Of a DNA stretch of 64,000 nucleotides, positions 285 through 43,712 are shown piece after piece. Origin of the DNA: Escherichia phage vB_EcoM-pEK20; the sequence record MZ868638.1; one strand, given 5' to 3'. The number at the start of each line of letters is the position of its first letter. Position 1 is the stretch's first letter. The notes under the pieces were generated by a model. It saw only the letters and a list, made by a program, of their open reading frames with translations. It was not told the origin of the DNA and did no database searches. The translations under genes were made by a program, and so were the position numbers.

Positions 285-932
285 TTATAATGCTTTTAAA
301 CTCTCTGCGAGAGCTTTAAATGCTTCATCAGCACTGTTTTTGGTGGTTTCCACCGAATTTTCTGATTCTGATTCTGATATTTGTTTAGGAGTAACCCAAG
401 CATCTGGAGCAGAAGGTCCCCATACGGCATCTACGCCGACGGTTAATTTAAATCCTTCGTTCACGATACGGTACCCTTTATTGGTGTCGGTTAAAGAACC
501 AAGACCACGAGAGGAAACACCTGGAATCCAACCAGCTCGTATATTAGCAGCTAATTTATCGCCGGGACCATGGTCGCCTTCAATAATTCTAGCACGTCCA
601 TATACATCGTTTCCTTTCCACCACATATCTTCAATAATGATAGCGGCTTGCATAGGGTCAACATTTGCACGAGGTGGATGGTTTAATTCTCCAAGGGCTT
701 GTTTGGTTGCGACTTGTTCTTTAATATAGTCACTTACTGCTTTTTCCAAAACGCGTTTAGGATATAAACGTTTATTTCGGTTAACAACCTCTGCCTGAAG
801 AAAAATACCTTCTATATAAAGCCCTGGTTTTAAGCCAGAATCTTTTCCATCATGAGATTCCAACATTGGAACGCCATCAATAATCTCACCGGGTTGACCC
901 CAAGTTTCAATAAGTAACTCGGGTTTATTCAT
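285..932 (-). CDS. 21: prohead core scaffold protein and protease gp21
   Basis: 215 aa, [29 protein letters not shown]...; near-identical to remembered T4 gp21; T4 gene order. Confidence 0.92.
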   Translation of the reverse strand: MNKPELLIETWGQPGEIIDGVPMLESHDGKDSGLKPGLYIEGIFLQAEVVNRNKRLYPKRVLEKAVSDYIKEQVATKQALGELNHPPRANVDPMQAAIIIEDMWWKGNDVYGRARIIEGDHGPGDKLAANIRAGWIPGVSSRGLGSLTDTNKGYRIVNEGFKLTVGVDAVWGPSAPDAWVTPKQISESESENSVETTKNSADEAFKALAESLKAL

Positions 933-3242: not shown

Positions 3243-3734
3243 TTATTCCCACCAATCAAGAGCAAGAGTTACTTCGAACGTTTCAATCTCGTTATTAGAA
3301 TCCCAATCAAGAGATACTTCACCAACGTTAGTAGGCCACAAGCCGACAATTTCAACTTCTTTAGTGACCGTTTTAGCATCACGAGCAAATTGACGAACGA
3401 TAGCAGACTTTTTATATTCAGCAGGTTTGCCACCGGTAATTTCATTACCTTGTCCTGCTGCAATACCTTGCCAATCAACAAATTTCTGACGAATGCTATG
3501 AGCATCATCGTTCATTACTGTAATAGTCCAATCATCGAATGTACGATCACCAGCCACGTTAATTTTACGGTTCATATAAGAAACAGGAACCTTTTCAACT
3601 ATCGCAGCAGGAAGAGCCGTAGCACGACACTGGAAGCTAAAGTTTTGCCCAAGATAAGAGATTTCTACTTCGAACAGGTTAGGGCGAGCGAAATCACCAG
3701 ATTCGAAGGCACGAGTTACGTCATCTACAAACAT
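3243..3734 (-). CDS. 19: tail tube protein gp19
   Basis: 163 aa, MFVDDVTRAFESGDFARPNLF...LALDWWE; near-identical to T4 gp19. Confidence 0.95.
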   Translation of the reverse strand: MFVDDVTRAFESGDFARPNLFEVEISYLGQNFSFQCRATALPAAIVEKVPVSYMNRKINVAGDRTFDDWTITVMNDDAHSIRQKFVDWQGIAAGQGNEITGGKPAEYKKSAIVRQFARDAKTVTKEVEIVGLWPTNVGEVSLDWDSNNEIETFEVTLALDWWE

Positions 3735-29929: not shown

Positions 29930-29959
29930 GTTTACATAAGGATGATGGTGTGTTACTAT
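29930..29959 (+). promoter_or_regulatory. early promoter (GTTTAC -35, TACTAT -10) upstream of ipI
   Basis: GTTTAC-N18-TACTAT; spacer contains the inverted repeat AGGATGATGG/CTATCATCCT. Confidence 0.6.
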
Positions 29960-29993
29960 CATCCTATCAAATAAACAACCTCAAGGAAATAAA

Positions 29994-30281
29994 ATGAAAA
30001 CCTATAAAGAATTTATATCACCTGTTGCTAACGTTTCTACTCTGACTGAAGCAACCCTTACTTCCGAAGTTATTAAAGCAAACAAAGGCCGTGAGGGTAA
30101 ACCAATGATTAGTCTAGCTGACGGCGAAGAAGTAAAAGGTACTGTTTACTTAGGAGACGGGTGGTCCGCTAAGAAAGATGGCGCTACTATTGTTATCTCT
30201 CCGGCTGAAGAGACTGCACTGTTTAAAGCTAAGCACATTTCTGTAGCTCAGCTTAAAATTATTGCAAAAACTCTTCTGTAA
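29994..30281 (+). CDS. ipI: internal protein I (capsid-packaged, injected; anti-restriction in T4)
   Basis: 95 aa; N-terminal capsid targeting sequence MKTYKEFI...TLTE with a gp21-type L-x-E cleavage site; position next to 57B as in T4. Confidence 0.8.
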   Translation: MKTYKEFISPVANVSTLTEATLTSEVIKANKGREGKPMISLADGEEVKGTVYLGDGWSAKKDGATIVISPAEETALFKAKHISVAQLKIIAKTLL

Positions 30282-30284
30282 GTA

Positions 30285-30314
30285 GTTTACACGCTGATAG
30301 GACTATGTTATAGT
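30285..30314 (+). promoter_or_regulatory. early promoter with palindrome GATAGGACTA...TAGTCCTATC around the -10
   Basis: GTTTAC-N18-TATAGT preceded by TG; 10-bp perfect inverted repeat flanks the -10. Confidence 0.6.
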
Positions 30315-30352
30315 AGTCCTATCAAAACAAAATGAGTAAATGGAGAAATAAA

Positions 30353-31788: not shown

Positions 31789-31863
31789 GGCCCTGTAGCT
31801 CAATGGGAGAGCTGTCAGCTCATAACTGATAGGTAGCTGGATCGAAACCAGCCAGGGTCACCA
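31789..31863 (+). tRNA. tRNA with CAU anticodon (Met or lysidine-modified Ile type), CCA encoded
   Basis: Hand-folded cloverleaf: acceptor GGCCCTG/CAGGGTC, D-arm GCTC-AATGGGA-GAGC, anticodon arm GTCAG-CTCATAA-CTGAT, T-arm GCTGG-ATCGAAA-CCAGC. Confidence 0.75.
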
Positions 31864-31866
31864 ATC

Positions 31867-31943
<77 letters not shown>

Positions 31944-32306: not shown

Positions 32307-32608
32307 GAAGCCGGGTCGCTACCGGCAAGTCGTCGGACTGATGTTCCCTGAGTAAGGACTGGTCTTAATAAATCTTTATGATTTGTTAATATCCCCTTAC
32401 ATCACAGCAGAAACGGCGCAAAGAATTATCGATTCGAGGAAATATCTTTGCCGTAAGCCGAGTAGCGTTTTTGACGGAACGTTCGGATATGGTCGAGATA
32501 TGGCCTTTTAAAAATATTGAGTAGCGTCAACTGCTTAATAACCGGGTTCGAATCCCGGCGTTTCGTACAAACACTTGCCTTAGTAGGTGGAAACCCCGAC
32601 AAGGTATA
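32307..32608 (+). ncRNA. ORF-free structured region, possible small stable RNA(s) with a tRNA-like T-arm
   Basis: About 300 nt with no ORF; CCGGG-TTCGAAT-CCCGG T-arm-like element at 32542-32558; repeated GAGTAGCG motif; ends at an intrinsic terminator. Confidence 0.4.
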
Positions 32609-32609
32609 T

Positions 32610-32638
32610 AGCCCCTTCCGAAAGGTTGGGGCTTTTTT
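32610..32638 (+). terminator. rho-independent terminator (AGCCCC...GGGGCU + U6)
   Basis: GC stem with inner CC-GAAA-GG, followed by TTTTTT. Confidence 0.8.
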
Positions 32639-32639
32639 G

Positions 32640-32647
32640 TATAAATA
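32640..32647 (+). promoter_or_regulatory. late promoter TATAAATA upstream of the 208-aa internal-protein-like gene
   Basis: Exact TATAAATA 35 nt upstream of the ATG at 32683. Confidence 0.65.
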
Positions 32648-32682
32648 TAGTAAACAATAAACCTACTTTCTAAGGACCATCA

Positions 32683-33309
32683 ATGTATACTTTTAATGAA
32701 TTTTTAGCCGAAACGGAAGTAATCACCGAAGCCGGTGTACGTATGACAAAAGAGAAATGGCAAGCTGCTTACGATGCTATTTCTGGTACAAAAACTAGTA
32801 CAGAGTTTTTCAAAAACGTTCAAGCCATGTATGGTATCGACACTTCCAGCCAAAAAGAATATTACAGAGCTTCTAAAGCATTCAAAGATATTGTTAGTGG
32901 CGGTGTTTCTGCTAAATCGGGTTCGCCTAAAGTAAAACCTGCTCCTACCGTTCCTAAACCTGCGACCCCTAAAGCAATAGCAAAACCTGAGCCTAAGCCG
33001 GAAGTAAAAGCAACTCCTAAAGCTCCTGCTCTTAAGTTTGATACTTCTAGCCTGGAAAAAAAATATAAACAACTATCTTCGCTTGTTCGTGATATTGAAT
33101 CCGATACATCTTCACTCGTTCGTGAATTCAACAGTCTTCGTAATGGCCAACATATCAACAACCTTGATACCCCAGACCTTTATCGTCTTTATTTGACTAT
33201 CGAAGGTTTGAAGTATACTCAACCACTTCACGATGCGATTAAAGAAAAACTTCGTCAGGCAGGTCGTTTGGCTGCTGACGCTGCTCAGTATGCAAAAACT
33301 CGTAAGTAA
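32683..33309 (+). CDS. internal-protein-like protein with capsid targeting sequence (208 aa)
   Basis: N-terminus MYTFNEFLAETEVITEA resembles the T4 CTS (MKTYQEFIAE) with L-x-E/I-x-E sites; Pro/Lys/Ala-rich linker; late promoter upstream. Confidence 0.65.
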   Translation: MYTFNEFLAETEVITEAGVRMTKEKWQAAYDAISGTKTSTEFFKNVQAMYGIDTSSQKEYYRASKAFKDIVSGGVSAKSGSPKVKPAPTVPKPATPKAIAKPEPKPEVKATPKAPALKFDTSSLEKKYKQLSSLVRDIESDTSSLVREFNSLRNGQHINNLDTPDLYRLYLTIEGLKYTQPLHDAIKEKLRQAGRLAADAAQYAKTRK

Positions 33310-33312
33310 AGA

Positions 33313-33332
33313 ATGGGGACTTCGGTCCCCAT
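33313..33332 (+). other. UUCG-tetraloop hairpin (AUGGGGAC-UUCG-GUCCCCAU) followed by UAGGGGGU
   Basis: 8-bp perfect stem immediately after the stop of the 208-aa gene; no U-tract. Confidence 0.55.
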
Positions 33333-40059: not shown

Positions 40060-40292
40060 GTATAGCAATTTACATTAAATCAGAATCATGTGATAGTTAT
40101 CTGTACACATACGATAAAGATGTGTCAGAAGAAAAAATCAAAGACGATCTTAATATGGACCTTGATTTGTTCAGTCCTATTGCAGATTACAAACTTGCGG
40201 TCTCTAATAGTGAAAGTCCATCTAAAGAAACGCGCATTGAAGAATTTATGTCCGAATTAATGGCCAAATCATGGGACCGAGATGATGAGTAA
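40056..40292 (+). CDS. hypothetical small acidic protein (78 aa)
   Basis: ATG at 40056 after AGGAAT; the track ORF is extended upstream. Confidence 0.5.
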   Translation: MSIAIYIKSESCDSYLYTYDKDVSEEKIKDDLNMDLDLFSPIADYKLAVSNSESPSKETRIEEFMSELMAKSWDRDDE

Positions 40293-40740
40293 GAAAAATA
40301 AAGTGAAAGAACTATCAGCCGGTATTATTTTCCTTACCGAAAATAAAGAATTATTCATGGGTCGTGTAACTGGTTCTCGTCCTAAAGGTGCATTAGCTCA
40401 TCGGTGGGATATTCCTAAAGGCCGTGTCGAACCTGGCGAATCTCCTATTGAAGCCGCTATTCGTGAATGCGAAGAAGAAACTGGGTTTACACAATATGAT
40501 CCTGCCTTCCTGAAAGACCTAGGTGAACATCATTACTCAGACAATAAGAATATTCATCTGTTCCTATATACCATCCCTGTAGAGCACGAGCAATTCAGAA
40601 ACAGTGTTTGCAATTCCTATCATACATTCCCAGACGGACGTCAGATTCCTGAATTTGATGCATTCGCTTTAATTAAACCTTCTCAATGGGAATATGTAAT
40701 GGGCAAATCATTATATAAGGTGCTCACTACCCTCCTATAA
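40282..40740 (+). CDS. nudE: Nudix hydrolase NudE
   Basis: Nudix box GRVEPGESPIEAAIRECEEETGF; position immediately upstream of e as in T4. Confidence 0.88.
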   Translation: MMSKKNKVKELSAGIIFLTENKELFMGRVTGSRPKGALAHRWDIPKGRVEPGESPIEAAIRECEEETGFTQYDPAFLKDLGEHHYSDNKNIHLFLYTIPVEHEQFRNSVCNSYHTFPDGRQIPEFDAFALIKPSQWEYVMGKSLYKVLTTLL

Positions 40741-40748
40741 GTAATAAA

Positions 40749-40772
40749 TACCTCCTATAAACGTGGGAGGTA
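40749..40772 (+). promoter_or_regulatory. hairpin covering the gene e ribosome binding site, with a TATAAA late-promoter-like element in the loop
   Basis: TACCTCC-tataaacgtg-GGAGGTA inverted repeat; the 3' arm is the Shine-Dalgarno of e. Confidence 0.6.
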
Positions 40773-40774
40773 TT

Positions 40775-41263
40775 ATGAATATATTTGAAATGCTTCGTAA
40801 TGACGAAGGTCTTAGACTGACTTTATACAAAGACACTGAAGGCTTTTGGACGATTGGCATAGGCCATTTAGTAACAAAGAACCCGTCTTTAGCCGTAGCT
40901 AAAGCTGAACTTGACAGAATGATCGGACGTAAATGCAACGGTACAATTACCCTTGATGAGGCTGAAAAGTTATTTAATGAAGACGTTGATAAAGCTGTTC
41001 GCGGAATCTTGGGTAATGCTAAACTTAAACCGGTATATGATTCTTTAGATGCAGTTCGTCGATGTGCATTGGTCAATATGGTCTTCCAAATGGGTGTAGC
41101 AGGCGTCGCTGGTTTTACTAATTCTCTTCGTATGCTTCAACAGAAACGTTGGGACGAAGCGGCAGTAAATCTAGCCCAATCTAAATGGTATCGTCAGACA
41201 CCTAATCGCGCGAAACGCGTAATCTCAACATTTAAAACAGGAACTTGGAAAGCGTATATATGA
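40775..41263 (+). CDS. e: endolysin (T4 lysozyme e)
   Basis: [32 protein letters not shown]...; near-identical to T4 lysozyme, catalytic E11/D20/T26 context conserved. Confidence 0.95.
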
Positions 41264-41541
41264 AAACATATAGTGAATTTTTATCAGAATCTATTCTTAA
41301 CGAAGCTACTGACACATTTGCAACTAAGCTAGGTGCAGCTTTGGTTGAAGCTGAAAGTTTATTAGCACGTATTTCTGAACTTGCTAGTAAGATAGATACT
41401 CGCAAATTTGAGCGCACCAGTGATATCGTTAAGCTTGAAGCCTTGTTGCGTATGTGCGATAAACCGGAAGAAATCGCTAAGAACGGCTCGCTGATGAAAC
41501 AACGTCTTGAAAAATATATTTCAGGCGCTTCAGAAAAATAG
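41260..41541 (+). CDS. internal protein (ipII/ipIII-like) with capsid targeting sequence
   Basis: [16 protein letters not shown]... CTS with L-x-E sites; position between e and denV as in T4; ATGA overlap with e. Confidence 0.7.
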
Positions 41542-41542
41542 T

Positions 41543-41572
41543 GTTTACTTCCTCCAAGGGTTTTGATACTAT
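41543..41572 (+). promoter_or_regulatory. early promoter upstream of denV
   Basis: GTTTAC-N18-TACTAT; CCTCCAAG in the spacer pairs with CTTGGAGG covering the denV Shine-Dalgarno. Confidence 0.55.
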
Positions 41573-41599
41573 ACATTCATCAACTACTTGGAGGAAATT

Positions 41600-42013
41600 A
41601 TGACTCGTATCAATTTAACACTTGTTTCTGAACTGGCCGACCAACATCTTATGGCTGAGTATCGTGAATTACCACGCGTATTTGGTGCAGTCCGTAAACA
41701 TGTTCAAAACGGTAAACGTGTAAAGGATTTTAAAATCTCTCCAACATTTATCTTAGGCACAGGTCACGTAACATTCTTTTACGACAAACTCGAATTTTTA
41801 CGTTTACGCCAAATCGAGCTAATCGCTGAATGCTTGAAACGTGGTTTCAAAATCAAGGACACGACTGTCCAGGATATTTCCGACATCCCTGCCGAATTTC
41901 GTAATAATTATGTCCCGTCCGAAGCGTCCATTGCGATAAGTCAAGCACGCTTAGATGAAAAAATTGCTCAACGTCCGACTTGGTACAAATACTATGGTAA
42001 ATCAATTTACTAA
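41600..42013 (+). CDS. denV: endonuclease V (pyrimidine dimer DNA glycosylase/AP lyase)
   Basis: [35 protein letters not shown]...; near-identical to T4 endo V; ATG at 41600. Confidence 0.93.
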
Positions 42014-42019
42014 GGAAAA

Positions 42020-42136
42020 ATGAAAATGTATCAAGAATTTATCATTGAAGCAGAGGCCAAAGGTCCTAAAGTAGATGTTGACGATATTGGATATGATTTT
42101 AACAACTTCGGAATTATTTCTGGCGGTAAAGCTTAA
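42020..42136 (+). CDS. short internal-protein-like ORF (38 aa, CTS only), possible remnant
   Basis: MKMYQEFIIEAEAKGPK... begins like the CTS family but terminates early. Confidence 0.4.
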   Translation: MKMYQEFIIEAEAKGPKVDVDDIGYDFNNFGIISGGKA

Positions 42137-42139
42137 ACG

Positions 42140-42169
42140 GTTTACGCTTAAGTATTAATATGGTATAAT
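42140..42169 (+). promoter_or_regulatory. early promoter GTTTAC-N18-TGGTATAAT
   Basis: Consensus -35 and extended -10. Confidence 0.6.
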
Positions 42170-42199
42170 TGCTCTATCAAAACAAACAAGGAAACAAAA

Positions 42200-42514
42200 A
42201 TGAAAACCTATAAAGAATTTATTGCAGAATCCGCCAACCAACGCGTTGAAGGTGGTTATATTTGGATTGAACAAGTTGAGCCACCGAGCCGCACTTCTAC
42301 AGGTAAATGGAAAATTACTGTTGATGGTCCTGGTGGTAAACGTAGGACTCTTAAAGAAATTAATGGGTACTATGAAGAAGCTCTTTCGGATGCAGGAACT
42401 TACATGATGCAAATCATGATTAAAAACCCTGAAAACCGTTTTGCAGCTAAAGTCTTCCGCCGTATTGGTAATAAACTTTATGATGCATATTCTAAAAACT
42501 TCCCTAAAGAATAA
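42200..42514 (+). CDS. internal-protein-like protein with CTS (104 aa)
   Basis: N-terminus MKTYKEFIAE. Confidence 0.7.
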   Translation: MKTYKEFIAESANQRVEGGYIWIEQVEPPSRTSTGKWKITVDGPGGKRRTLKEINGYYEEALSDAGTYMMQIMIKNPENRFAAKVFRRIGNKLYDAYSKNFPKE

Positions 42515-42540
42515 CATAAATTAAAACAATAGGAAAAAAA

Positions 42541-42843
42541 ATGAAAACATATCAAGAATTTATTACTGAAGCGCGAGTGAGTGCAGGTAAATTAGAAGCC
42601 GCTATAAATAAAAAGGCCCATTCATTTCATGATTTGTCCGATAAAGACCGTAAGAAACTTGTAAGCCTTTATATTGACAAAGAGCGTATTCTCGCTCTTC
42701 CTGGCGCTAATGAAGGTAAACAGGCCAAGCCTTTGAATGCCGTCGAAAAGAAAATTGATAACTTTGCTTCTAAATTCGGTATGTCTATGGATGACCTTCA
42801 GCAAGCGGCTATCGAAGCAGCTAAAGTAATTAAAGGTAAATAA
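42541..42843 (+). CDS. internal-protein-like protein with CTS (100 aa)
   Basis: N-terminus MKTYQEFITEA. Confidence 0.7.
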   Translation: MKTYQEFITEARVSAGKLEAAINKKAHSFHDLSDKDRKKLVSLYIDKERILALPGANEGKQAKPLNAVEKKIDNFASKFGMSMDDLQQAAIEAAKVIKGK

Positions 42844-42845
42844 CA

Positions 42846-42875
42846 GTTTACTTTCTCCTAGAATTGTGATAGTAT
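42846..42875 (+). promoter_or_regulatory. early promoter, duplicate of the denV promoter
   Basis: GTTTAC-N18-TAGTAT; overall similarity to 41543-41600. Confidence 0.5.
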
Positions 42876-42900
42876 ATTCATAATTACTTGGATGGGTAAA

Positions 42901-42999
42901 ATGACTTATATTAATTTGACTTTAGTATCTAAATTTGCTGATCAACATTTAATCGCCGAATACTGTGAATTGCCACGTGTTTTTTGGTATAATTCGTAA
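42901..42999 (+). pseudogene. truncated duplicate of the denV 5' end
   Basis: [28 protein letters not shown] matches denV residues 1-28, then diverges and stops; denV-like RKHV continues in another frame. Confidence 0.6.
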
Positions 43000-43007
43000 A
43001 CACGTGG
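42973..43007 (+). repeat. perfect 10-bp inverted repeat CCACGTGTTT...AAACACGTGG with TGGTATAAT in the loop
   Basis: Read directly; lies at the breakpoint of the denV remnant. Confidence 0.7.
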
Positions 43008-43172
43008 CAAAAATATTTACATTCAAATAAAATGGGAACAACCTGGACCTCATGATTCTATGAGGGATTCCCGCCAACCTGTAATAAGGTCGAGCCCAAG
43101 TGCGGTAATGGGTAAATACAGAAATGGACAATTCATGCGCCACGGAACGGCCCCAACCTTAAGAGAAACTAA

Positions 43173-43712
43173 ATGAGAACATTTTTAACCGGACCTTATC
43201 TATCCCTGATGAATGCTTTTACACACCATTCTGATGCTAGAGTAGAAGAAATTTGTAAGAACGGTTATGCCCCACCATTTGAAGACGTACTCAAGCAGTA
43301 CTGTACACTTCGTTTAGACGGTGGCAGACAATCCGGTAAATCAATTGCTGTGACTAATTTTGCTGCTAATTGGTTGTATGATGGCGGAACGGTTATTGTT
43401 CTTTCTAATACTTCAGCTTATGCTAAAATTTCTGCTGGCAACATTGAAAAAGAATTTTCTCGTTATTCTAGCGACGATATTCGATTCCGTTTATTTACTG
43501 ATTCTGTTCGTAGTTTTATTGGTAATGAAGGACATAAATTCCGTGGATTAACACTTTCTCGTATTCTGTACATAATTGACGAGCCTATTAAAGCTCCTGA
43601 TATGGATAAGATTTACGACATCCATATTAAAACAGTCCAACACTGTTGCAAAAGCAAATATTGCATCGGCGGTAATGCTCGTCCTCAATTTTTTGTGATT
43701 GGAATGCAATGA
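43173..43712 (+). CDS. small P-loop NTPase-like protein (179 aa)
   Basis: Walker A GGRQSGKS and Walker B-like ILYIIDEP. Confidence 0.6.
   Translation: MRTFLTGPYLSLMNAFTHHSDARVEEICKNGYAPPFEDVLKQYCTLRLDGGRQSGKSIAVTNFAANWLYDGGTVIVLSNTSAYAKISAGNIEKEFSRYSSDDIRFRLFTDSVRSFIGNEGHKFRGLTLSRILYIIDEPIKAPDMDKIYDIHIKTVQHCCKSKYCIGGNARPQFFVIGMQ

What the first reader, a model, noticed from the sequence alone, without database searches (positions are those of the whole stretch)
41260..42843. Expanded cluster of CTS-bearing internal-protein genes around denV
Four ORFs start with the same roughly 10-residue motif ([40 protein letters not shown]) but have unrelated bodies; one is only 38 aa. Together with ipI at 29994 and the 208-aa gene at 32683, the window holds six CTS-type genes. 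This pattern suggests modular shuffling of effector domains onto a conserved packaging signal.
Basis: partly seen in the sequence, partly recalled or inferred. Interest (0 to 1): 0.6.

Follow-up and report, generated by a model that had tools for sequence, protein, structure and literature searches.

The report
Known T4-type internal-protein gene array
This is the well-known variable "internal protein" locus of a T4-like (RB69/JS09-type) phage: small genes with one 10-residue head-packaging tag and unrelated bodies, described since 1994 and therefore ordinary.

Summary
Four + strand ORFs (41260, 42020, 42200, 42541) begin MK[T/M]Y.EF[I/L].E and have unrelated bodies. ipI (29994) and a 208-aa ORF (32683) carry related N-termini. 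The motif occurs nowhere else in six frames and in none of 20 shuffles.

The window is a Mosigvirus, 99% identical to phage JS09. The locus is the classical e–denV–vs.8 internal-protein (IP) hyperplastic region. IPd is T4 IpII (94% identity), IPc is "Ip10", IPa is an annotated internal head protein, and ipI matches Pfam IPI_T4 and PDB 2JUB. The window also encodes the gp21 prohead protease that cleaves this tag.

The interpretation, modular shuffling onto a capsid targeting sequence (CTS), is supported but long published (Repoila 1994; Mullaney & Black 1996; Comeau 2007).

Details added here:
- The 38-aa ORF is a 144-nt in-frame deletion of an 86-aa IP.
- IpII sits behind the IpIII-type leader, so IpIII was lost by a crossover within the short shared start of the CTS-coding repeat.
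- A decayed second denV copy marks the ancestral denV position.
- The 208-aa family has canonical MKTY homologues and a conserved late promoter, yet is annotated as hypothetical in all 25 listed database rows.

Novelty: already known. Interest is low.

The parts
285..932 (-). gene 21, the prohead core serine protease that cleaves CTS propeptides after L/I-x-E
   Evidence: Pfam Peptidase_S77, E=2.9e-107. gp68, gp67 and gp20 lie next to it.
29930..29965 (+). T4-early-type promoter (GTTTAC...TACTAT) overlapping a stem-loop, upstream of ipI
   Evidence: Pattern scan. Fold -16.6 kcal/mol, z=-3.2.
29994..30281 (+). ipI, the internal protein I homologue. Its propeptide is MKTYKEFISPVANVSTLTE, and the mature part starts at residue 20.
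   Evidence: Pfam IPI_T4 1.1e-49 over residues 20-95. PDB 2jub_A 2e-41 over residues 20-95. JS09 annotates it as IpI.
30285..30323 (+). Early-type promoter plus stem-loop directly after ipI
   Evidence: fold -17.7 kcal/mol, z=-4.8.
32611..32647 (+). Terminator hairpin with T-run (32611-32638), followed by a perfect T4 late promoter TATAAATA (32640-32647) 36 nt before the 208-aa ORF
   Evidence: The same terminator-plus-late-promoter arrangement occurs upstream of homologues in JS98, KMB19, Kosakonia 305 and MY02.
32683..33309 (+). 208-aa candidate internal protein. N-terminus MYTFNEFLAE is CTS-like, with a second conserved I-T-E|A site at residues 14-17. It has a helical N-domain, a disordered Pro/Ala/Lys-rich linker and a helical C-domain. 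Mature pI is about 9.8.
   Evidence: phrog_2280, unknown function. Homologues start MKTYNEFLNES. AlphaFold model pLDDT 72.6. No fold match. pI.
41260..41541 (+). IPa, a 93-aa CTS-bearing internal head protein. Its start overlaps the stop of gene e (ATGA).
   Evidence: phrog_3499 'internal head protein', 1.2e-46. RefSeq JS09_055 is annotated 'internal head protein'. Overlap shown.
41543..41596 (+). Early-type promoter with a stem-loop whose 3' arm contains the denV Shine-Dalgarno sequence
   Evidence: I2; fold -19.8 kcal/mol, z=-3.1. T4 has the same element with a different but complementary stem sequence.
41600..42013 (+). denV, intact endonuclease V
   Evidence: 92% identical to T4 DenV over 137 aa. 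phrog_1183 2e-62 and Pfam Pyr_excise.
42020..42136 (+). IPb-delta, 38 aa (RB69ORF125c type). It is an in-frame 144-nt internal deletion allele of an 86-aa CTS-bearing internal head protein.
   Evidence: Protein comparison. DNA alignment with ST0 and phi25-307. The full-length allele covers at least 80% of the query in 214 of 217 phage records that matched at E<=1e-5.
42140..42169 (+). Early-type promoter GTTTAC-N17-TGGTATAAT upstream of Ip10, with no significant hairpin
42200..42514 (+). IPc = Ip10, 104 aa, CTS MKTYKEFIAE, basic mature part
   Evidence: The JS09_058 note reads 'Ip10; similar to CAA84455.1 Ip10 [phage Pol]'. Homologue P0020 is named Ip10 in Shigella phage SP18. phrog_3966.
42541..42843 (+). 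IPd = IpII, 100 aa, placed behind an IpIII-type 5' leader
   Evidence: 81/86 residues (94%) identical to T4 IPII. phrog_7857 4.5e-55. Leader comparison.
42846..43030 (+). Decayed second copy of the denV promoter/stem-loop (42846-42895) and a denV pseudogene (42901-43030). The pseudogene has codons 1-36 with a +1 frameshift near 42984, joined to the last ~5 codons.
   Evidence: Repeats D3 and D5. About 80% alignment to 41543-41703. tblastn and PHROG hits. C-terminal remnant identified by comparison with W143.

Best explanation
The region is the e–denV–vs.8 hyperplastic internal-protein (IP) locus of a Mosigvirus, an RB69/JS09-like T-even phage.

Proposed mechanism:
1. Each IP gene encodes a small protein whose first 10 residues (MKTYxEF[I/L]xE) form the capsid targeting sequence.
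2. The CTS docks the protein onto the gp22 scaffolding core while the prohead assembles.
3. The gp21 protease, encoded in this same window, cuts after Glu10 (L/I-x-E). The mature protein stays in the head and is injected with the DNA.
4. In the host it neutralises a specific defence. The T4 proteins Ip1, Ip2 and Ip3 each inhibit a different GmrSD-type type IV restriction enzyme.

The array content changes by homologous recombination. The substrates are the roughly 30-nt CTS-coding repeats and the repeated early-promoter/stem-loop linkers.

Shown here:
- the motif, its position-specific conservation and the unrelated bodies;
- identity of the genes with IpI, IpII, Ip10 and annotated internal head proteins;
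- presence of gp21 in the window;
- cassette polymorphism among relatives;
- a leader/CTS/body junction showing loss of IpIII by a crossover at the start of the CTS-coding repeat;
- the 38-aa ORF as a deletion allele;
- a decayed denV duplicate.

Inferred from T4 experiments and not tested here: packaging, cleavage, injection and anti-restriction activity of these particular proteins.
For: Identity of the locus:
- 99% DNA identity to JS09, genus Mosigvirus.
- The order nudE-e-[IPs]-denV-[IPs]-vs.8 matches T4 nudE-e-ipIII-ipII-denV-vs.8.

Identity of the genes:
- IPd is 94% identical to T4 IPII.
- ipI matches Pfam IPI_T4 and PDB 2jub.
- IPc is Ip10.
- IPa and the 86-aa parent of IPb are annotated as internal head proteins.

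The motif:
- It is found only at these ORF starts and in 0 of 20 shuffles.
- Invariant M1, K2, Y4, E6, F7 and E10 with I/L8 fit the mapped functional residues 4, 7, 8 and 10 and the gp21 L/I-x-E site (PMC9026906).
- gp21 is in the window, Peptidase_S77 3e-107.

Recombination:
- Relatives differ by presence or absence of IpIII, IpII, a 109-aa IP and the 144-nt segment.
- The sequence upstream of IpII matches the IpIII leader of relatives (2 mismatches in 26 nt) and not the native IpII leader.
- A duplicated promoter plus denV 5' end lies 1.3 kb downstream.
- The downstream denV copy carries different deletions in W143, ST0, phi25-307 and p000v.
- Early-promoter/stem-loop linkers are present.

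Literature:
- Two hyperplastic IP loci, the leader motif and flanking promoter/hairpin repeats (Repoila 1994, via PMC2839356 and PMC12373910).
- More than 30 IP variants (Comeau 2007).
- Ip1, Ip2 and Ip3 each inhibit a distinct GmrSD.
- RB69 IPI protects against GmrSD (PMC6024577).
Against: - No virion proteomics or functional data exist for this phage's IPa, Ip10, IPb-delta or the 208-aa protein. Their packaging and targets are inferred.
- IPb-delta would leave only a 28-residue acidic peptide after cleavage and is probably non-functional.
- IPa is near-neutral (pI 6.3), unlike the basic classical IPs.
- No late promoter consensus lies directly upstream of the cluster genes. The only exact TATAAATA in the region is inside IpII. 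Late expression, which prohead incorporation needs, must come from read-through from gene e or from non-consensus promoters.
- Mosigviruses carry arabinosyl-hmC rather than glucosyl-hmC DNA, so the relevant host nucleases may differ from those defined with T4.
Confidence: 0.9

Rival explanations
1. The four genes are tandem paralogues from local duplication. Their bodies diverged beyond recognition under arms-race selection while the N-terminus stayed constrained. On this view there was no shuffling of unrelated modules.
For: - The genes are adjacent, on the same strand and of similar size, about 90-105 aa.
- IpII and IpIII share weak similarity a few residues beyond the CTS (tblastn, 50% over 30 aa).
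- IPs are known to evolve fast.
Against: - Bodies have no detectable similarity and different composition. IPa has pI 6.3, against the basic IPc and IPd. The low-confidence Ip10 model contains beta-strands; IPa was not modelled.
- Identity drops abruptly from 67-87% to background exactly after codon 10.
- Relatives differ by clean cassette insertions and deletions, and one junction falls at the start of the CTS-coding repeat. This shows recombination rather than gradual divergence.
- The same IP families occur in different orders and at different loci in other phages.
Confidence: 0.07
2. The conserved 5' 30 nt acts at the nucleic-acid level, for example as a translation-initiation enhancer, a nuclease or repressor site, or simply a recombination linker. 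The encoded peptide would have no targeting role in these particular genes.
For: - The repeat is conserved as DNA, as a 37-nt family including the A-rich leader.
- It demonstrably serves as a recombination substrate.
Against: - Variation is confined to codons 3, 5 and 9. Residues 4, 7, 8 and 10, which experiments show are needed for targeting and cleavage, are kept, including through synonymous or conservative changes such as TTA/ATC/ATT at codon 8.
- Per PMC9026906, the 10-residue peptide alone directs foreign proteins into T4 heads.
- Distant homologues of the 208-aa family keep the peptide pattern (M-x-x-[YF]-x-[ED]-[FI]-[LI]-x-E) in other phage genera, where overall protein identity falls to about 33-50%.
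Confidence: 0.03

Closest known systems
T4 internal proteins IPI, IPII and IPIII with their capsid targeting sequence (Black lab; Mullaney & Black 1996)
   Same: - Same 10-residue N-terminal tag with an L/I-x-E gp21 site.
- Same two genomic loci, 57B–tRNA and e–denV–vs.8.
- IPd is IpII at 94% identity, and ipI matches IPI_T4 and 2JUB.
- The same protease, gp21, is encoded in the window.
   Different: - IpIII is absent.
- denV lies inside the array rather than after it.
- There are extra members: IPa, a truncated 86-aa IP and Ip10.
- The phage is a Mosigvirus, whose DNA carries arabinosyl-hmC according to PMC6024577.
Hyperplastic IP loci of T-even phages (Repoila, Tétart, Bouet & Krisch 1994, EMBO J 13:4181; Comeau et al. 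2007)
   Same: - Variable number, order and identity of leader-bearing ORFs.
- Flanking repeated early-promoter/hairpin sequences.
- Ip10 and a denV fragment were already deposited from phage Pol (CAA84455, CAA84453), as cited in the JS09 annotation.
- The shuffling interpretation is the one those papers proposed.
   Different: Nothing essential. This window adds a documented deletion allele (38 aa), a junction placing the IpIII-loss crossover at the start of the CTS-coding repeat, and independent decay of the duplicate denV in sister phages. I could not read the 1994 paper itself, so some of these details may already be in it.
PeSL (promoter-early stem-loop) cassettes of RB49/phi1-type phages (Arbiol et al. 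2010, PMC2839356)
   Same: Composite promoter plus stem-loop elements sit between small non-essential ORFs and could act as recombination linkers.
   Different: Here the elements are T4-early-type promoters (GTTTAC...) with AT-rich stems, which that paper calls analogues and not homologues. The one crossover that could be located here lies at the start of the CTS-coding sequence, not in a promoter element.
GmrSD/type IV restriction inhibitors Ip1, Ip2, Ip3 (Bair et al. 2007; Nat Commun 2025, PMC12373910)
   Same: The ipI and IpII homologues here are near-identical to proteins shown to inhibit specific GmrSD enzymes.
   Different: No target is known for IPa, Ip10, the 86-aa IP or the 208-aa family. 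No sequence or fold similarity to any solved structure was found.

Membership tests
T4-type CTS-bearing internal head proteins | A ~10-residue MKTYQEFIAE-like sequence at the extreme N-terminus | tested here: met
   The four cluster ORFs and ipI match MK[TM]Y.EF at residue 1. The 208-aa ORF has 6/10 identity, and its homologues are canonical (MKTYNEFLNE).
T4-type CTS-bearing internal head proteins | Aromatic residues at positions 4 and 7 (targeting) and L/I at 8 with Glu at 10 (gp21 cleavage site L/I-x-E) | tested here: met
   - Y4, F7, I/L8 and E10 are present in all four cluster ORFs.
- ipI has P10 but LTE at residues 17-19, and the solved mature IPI* aligns from residue 20.
- The 208-aa ORF has F4, F7, L8, E10 plus ITE at 14-16.
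(criteria from PMC9026906)
T4-type CTS-bearing internal head proteins | Encoded in one of the two hyperplastic IP loci (57B–ipI–tRNA region, or e–denV–vs.8 region) | tested here: met
   Synteny with T4 and JS09. The 208-aa ORF lies 2.4 kb beyond ipI, past the tRNA genes, at the edge of or outside the classical ipI locus.
T4-type CTS-bearing internal head proteins | The same genome encodes the gp21 prohead protease and scaffolding core (gp22, gp67, gp68) | tested here: met
   - gp21 at 285-932(-), Peptidase_S77 3e-107.
- gp67 matches Pfam GP67.
- gp68 and gp20 are adjacent.
- gp22 is annotated next to gp21 in JS09.

T4-type CTS-bearing internal head proteins | Protein physically present in the mature head, N-terminally processed, and injected with the DNA | not testable with these tools
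   Needs virion mass spectrometry or N-terminal sequencing. A literature search found no proteome for this phage group.
GmrSD (type IV restriction) inhibitors of the Ip1/Ip2/Ip3 kind | Close sequence homology to an experimentally validated inhibitor | tested here: met
   Met for ipI (IPI_T4, 2jub) and IPd (94% to T4 IpII) only. Not met for IPa, IPb-delta, Ip10 or the 208-aa ORF.
GmrSD (type IV restriction) inhibitors of the Ip1/Ip2/Ip3 kind | Specific inhibition of a GmrSD-family nuclease in vivo | not testable with these tools
   Requires plaque assays on strains carrying GmrSD variants, as in PMC12373910.
PeSL-like promoter/stem-loop shuffling linkers | An intergenic early promoter combined with a stable stem-loop, repeated on both sides of the variable ORFs | tested here: inconclusive
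   - Present at 29930, 30285 and 41543 (z -3.1 to -4.8), and decayed at 42846.
- The 42140 element has a promoter but no hairpin.
- IPb and IPd have no such element upstream.
- The promoter scan overall is not enriched over shuffles.

The most novel reading that the evidence does not exclude
The 208-aa ORF (32683-33309) may represent an unrecognised class of packaged internal protein that extends beyond the T-even phages.
- It has a CTS-like propeptide.
- It forms a conserved monocistronic late transcription unit: terminator, TATAAATA, ORF, hairpin.
- It has a histone-H1-like Pro/Ala/Lys-rich linker between two helical domains.
- It is found in 138 phage records, with the four loci examined outside Mosigvirus coming from Dhakavirus, Karamvirus, Kanagawavirus and Marfavirus. 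All 25 listed rows lack a functional name: 22 'hypothetical protein', 3 with no annotation.
- It lies beyond the tRNA genes, at the edge of or outside the two canonical IP loci.

If packaged, it could be a DNA-associated or anti-defence ejection protein conserved more widely than IpI-III.
Probability: 0.4. Interest if true: 0.35.

Novelty: already known. Interest (0 to 1): 0.15.

Why it matters
Internal proteins are effectors that the phage injects with its DNA. They decide whether T-even phages survive type IV restriction, so their repertoire helps determine host range, which matters for phage therapy.

This particular array adds no new principle. Its genes are present, and mostly named, in close relatives. 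The shuffling idea dates from 1994.

Modest practical value:
- It corrects the reading of the 38-aa ORF, which is a deletion remnant.
- It gives a clean example of recombination at the CTS-coding repeat.
- It flags a widely conserved 'hypothetical' 208-aa family as a testable candidate head or ejection protein.

Tried and rejected
- **Rfam.** An E-value scan of 41000-43400 and a gathering scan of the whole window found no structured RNA in the locus. Only two tRNAs, at 31789-31943, were found. An idea that the GC-richer 43030-43172 stretch was an intron or sRNA was dropped. It is the N-terminal 38 codons of vs.8, now in another frame.
- **Ip10 structure.** The model came from a 4-sequence alignment and had pLDDT 49. 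It was unusable, so no fold search was run.
- **208-aa structure.** The model was moderately confident (pLDDT 72.6), but Foldseek against PDB gave nothing below E=1, only generic helical hairpins.
- **PDB sequence searches.** IpII, Ip10 and IPa gave no significant hit.
- **Pfam.** It matched only ipI and denV. Weak DUF7412 and CsgH hits are below threshold.
- **T4 IpIII.** Neither the 208-aa ORF nor IPa is homologous to T4 IpIII beyond the leader.
- **Late promoters.** None was found directly upstream of the cluster genes.
- **Literature.** The 1994 Repoila paper is not held and was used only through citing papers. Searches for virion proteomes covering these proteins found nothing relevant.
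- **Promoter/terminator scan.** The generic scan is not enriched over shuffles. Promoter calls rest on the T4-specific GTTTAC...TAnnAT pattern and on conservation.
Full report
**What is there.** The window is a T-even phage of the genus Mosigvirus (RB69-like). Positions 40700-43300 are 99.0% identical over their full length to Escherichia phage vB_EcoM_JS09. On the + strand the order is:

| Coordinates | Gene |
|---|---|
| 40282-40740 | nudE |
| 40763-41263 | e (lysozyme) |
| 41260-41541 | IPa, 93 aa |
| 41600-42013 | denV |
| 42020-42136 | IPb, 38 aa |
| 42200-42514 | IPc, 104 aa |
| 42541-42843 | IPd, 100 aa |
| 42901-43030 | denV fragment |
| 43173-43712 | vs.8 |

T4 has nudE-e-ipIII-ipII-denV-vs.8 in the same orientation. 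This is therefore the classical second internal-protein locus.

**Observation check.** A six-frame scan finds MK.[YF].[ED]F at an ORF start only at these four genes and at ipI (29994). Six ORF starts in the window have at least 6/10 identity to MKTYQEFIAE; the sixth is the 208-aa ORF at 32683 (MYTFNEFLAE). None was found in 20 shuffles. The first 30 nt are 67-87% identical between the genes, against 20-37% for the next 60 nt. They form a four-copy direct repeat. The bodies share no significant similarity.

**Identity of the genes.**
- IPd is IpII, with 81/86 aligned residues identical to T4 IPII.
- ipI matches Pfam IPI_T4 (1e-49) and the solved IPI* structure 2JUB from residue 20 on.
- IPc is 'Ip10'. 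The JS09 annotation cites CAA84455 from phage Pol, and a homologue in Shigella phage SP18 carries the same name.
- IPa belongs to phrog_3499 'internal head protein' and is annotated that way in RefSeq.
- The 38-aa IPb is RB69ORF125c.

**The tag fits a functional CTS.** M1, K2, Y4, E6, F7 and E10 are invariant among the four genes. Position 8 is I or L, and positions 3, 5 and 9 vary. PMC9026906 summarises Mullaney & Black 1996 as follows: the first 10 residues of IPIII suffice for head targeting, residues 4 and 7 matter for targeting, residues 8 and 10 matter for processing, and gp21 cleaves after L/I-x-E. The window itself encodes gp21 (285-932, minus strand; Peptidase_S77, 3e-107), next to gp68, gp67 and the portal protein. 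Packaging, cleavage and injection of these particular proteins are inferred, not shown.

**Evidence for modular exchange.** Five related phages were compared across the e–vs.8 interval.

| Phage | Content of the interval |
|---|---|
| Window / JS09 | IPa-denV-IPbΔ-Ip10-IpII-ΔdenV |
| ST0 | IPa-denV-IPb(86 aa)-Ip10-IpII |
| phi25-307 | as ST0, plus IpIII and a further 109-aa CTS ORF |
| W143 | IPa-denV-IPb-Ip10-IpIII-IpII |
| p000v | lacks IpII |

1. The 38-aa ORF is an in-frame 144-nt internal deletion of the 86-aa IP. The flanks are otherwise near-identical, and the deletion lies between short CCTAAA-containing repeats. The full-length form covers at least 80% of the query in 214 of the 217 phage records that matched at E<=1e-5. 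That threshold may miss other short deletion alleles.
2. The 26 nt upstream of the window's IpII start codon match the IpIII leader of phi25-307, W143 and p000v, with 2 mismatches. They do not match the native IpII leader (…atttacatttaaaggaaacat). From codon 8 onward the sequence is IpII-specific. IpIII was therefore lost by a crossover within the ~20-25 nt of shared sequence at the start of the CTS-coding repeats. This is direct evidence that the conserved tag sequence is a recombination substrate.
3. A second copy of the denV promoter/stem-loop and the first 36 denV codons follows IpII, as in T4. It is about 80% identical to the intact copy, carries a frameshift, and is joined to the last few codons. 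W143, ST0, phi25-307 and p000v carry different deletions at this spot. The downstream position is therefore ancestral, and the duplicate is decaying independently in each lineage.

**Regulatory linkers.** T4-early-type promoters (GTTTAC…TAnnAT) immediately follow the stop codons of 57B-side DNA, ipI, IPa, IPb and IpII. Those at 29930, 30285 and 41543 overlap stable stem-loops (z -3.1 to -4.8). The denV stem sequesters its Shine-Dalgarno sequence, and its sequence differs from the T4 stem while remaining complementary. These correspond to the 'PeSL-like' IP-associated elements attributed to Repoila et al. 1994 in PMC2839356. The generic promoter scan is not enriched over shuffles.

**The 208-aa ORF.**
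- Homologues begin MKTYNEFLNES…, which is a canonical tag. A second conserved (I/L)-x-E|A site lies at residues 14-17.
- The gene follows a terminator hairpin (32611-32638) and a perfect late promoter TATAAATA (32640-32647), and a hairpin follows it.
- The same terminator/late-promoter/CTS-like start arrangement occurs in JS98 (Dhakavirus), KMB19 (Karamvirus), Kosakonia phage 305 (Kanagawavirus) and MY02 (Marfavirus). The promoter matches 7/8 in the last two.
- The model shows two helical domains joined by a disordered Pro/Ala/Lys-rich linker. No fold match was found.
- Of the 138 phage records that match, none of the 25 listed rows carries a functional name: 22 say 'hypothetical protein' and 3 have no annotation.
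- Counting it as 'CTS-type' is therefore reasonable, but packaging is unproven.

**Comparison with what is known.** Citing papers credit Repoila et al. 1994 with two hyperplastic IP loci, at least ten leader-bearing ORFs and associated promoter/hairpin repeats. Comeau et al. 2007 are credited with more than 30 IP variants. [quoted passage not shown] Ip1, Ip2 and Ip3 each inhibit a distinct GmrSD type IV restriction enzyme, and RB69 IPI protects against GmrSD.

**Rivals.** Tandem paralogy with runaway divergence is disfavoured by three observations: the abrupt identity drop after codon 10, the clean cassette insertions and deletions, and the junction at the start of the CTS-coding repeat. A purely nucleic-acid role for the repeat is disfavoured by the position-specific amino-acid conservation, including in homologues from other phage genera. 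It is also disfavoured by published CTS fusion experiments.

**Verdict.** This is a real feature, correctly interpreted, and already known. Interest is low (0.15). The most novel reading still open is that the 208-aa family is an unrecognised, widely conserved, late-expressed packaged protein (probability about 0.4).

Noticed in passing
window 42846-43030: There is a pseudogene copy of the denV promoter/stem-loop and 5' end: codons 1-36, a +1 frameshift near 42984, fused to the last ~5 codons. Sister phages W143, ST0, phi25-307 and p000v carry different deletions at the same spot, so a duplicated denV is decaying independently in several lineages.
   Followed up: yes
window 43060-43176 and 43173-43712: vs.8 is a single 219-aa ORF in T4. 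Here it is split into a 38-aa ORF (80% identical to T4 residues 1-38) and a 179-aa ORF in another frame, overlapping by ATGA. This could be a frameshifted gene, or a coupled pair that T4's annotation merges.
   Followed up: partly
window 32611-33330; L009-L012: The 208-aa 'hypothetical' gene is a self-contained late transcription unit (terminator, TATAAATA, ORF, hairpin) with a CTS-like N-terminus. The arrangement is also seen in loci from four other genera. It is a candidate unannotated head or ejection protein.
   Followed up: partly
window 41543-41605 and L002 (T4) ipII-denV spacer: The stem-loop upstream of denV pairs the region just after the -35 box with the denV Shine-Dalgarno sequence. 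The T4 stem has a different sequence but keeps complementarity. Read-through transcripts would have the ribosome-binding site masked, while transcripts from the internal promoter would not.
   Followed up: partly
window 41260-41263: The IPa start codon overlaps the stop codon of lysozyme gene e (ATGA), with no promoter between them. This suggests translational coupling and expression of IPa from the gene e transcripts.
   Followed up: no
L003 (phi25-307) 3274-3651: The sister phage has an additional 109-aa CTS-bearing ORF after IpII. Its upstream region repeats part of the vs.8 N-terminal coding sequence. RefSeq annotates a longer ORF that starts 16 codons upstream of the MKTYQEF start.
   Followed up: no
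window 31789-31943: Only two tRNA genes (Met-CAT, Arg-TCT) lie between the ipI region and the 208-aa ORF. The ~300-nt ORF-free stretch after them (about 32310-32610) has no Rfam match.
   Followed up: no
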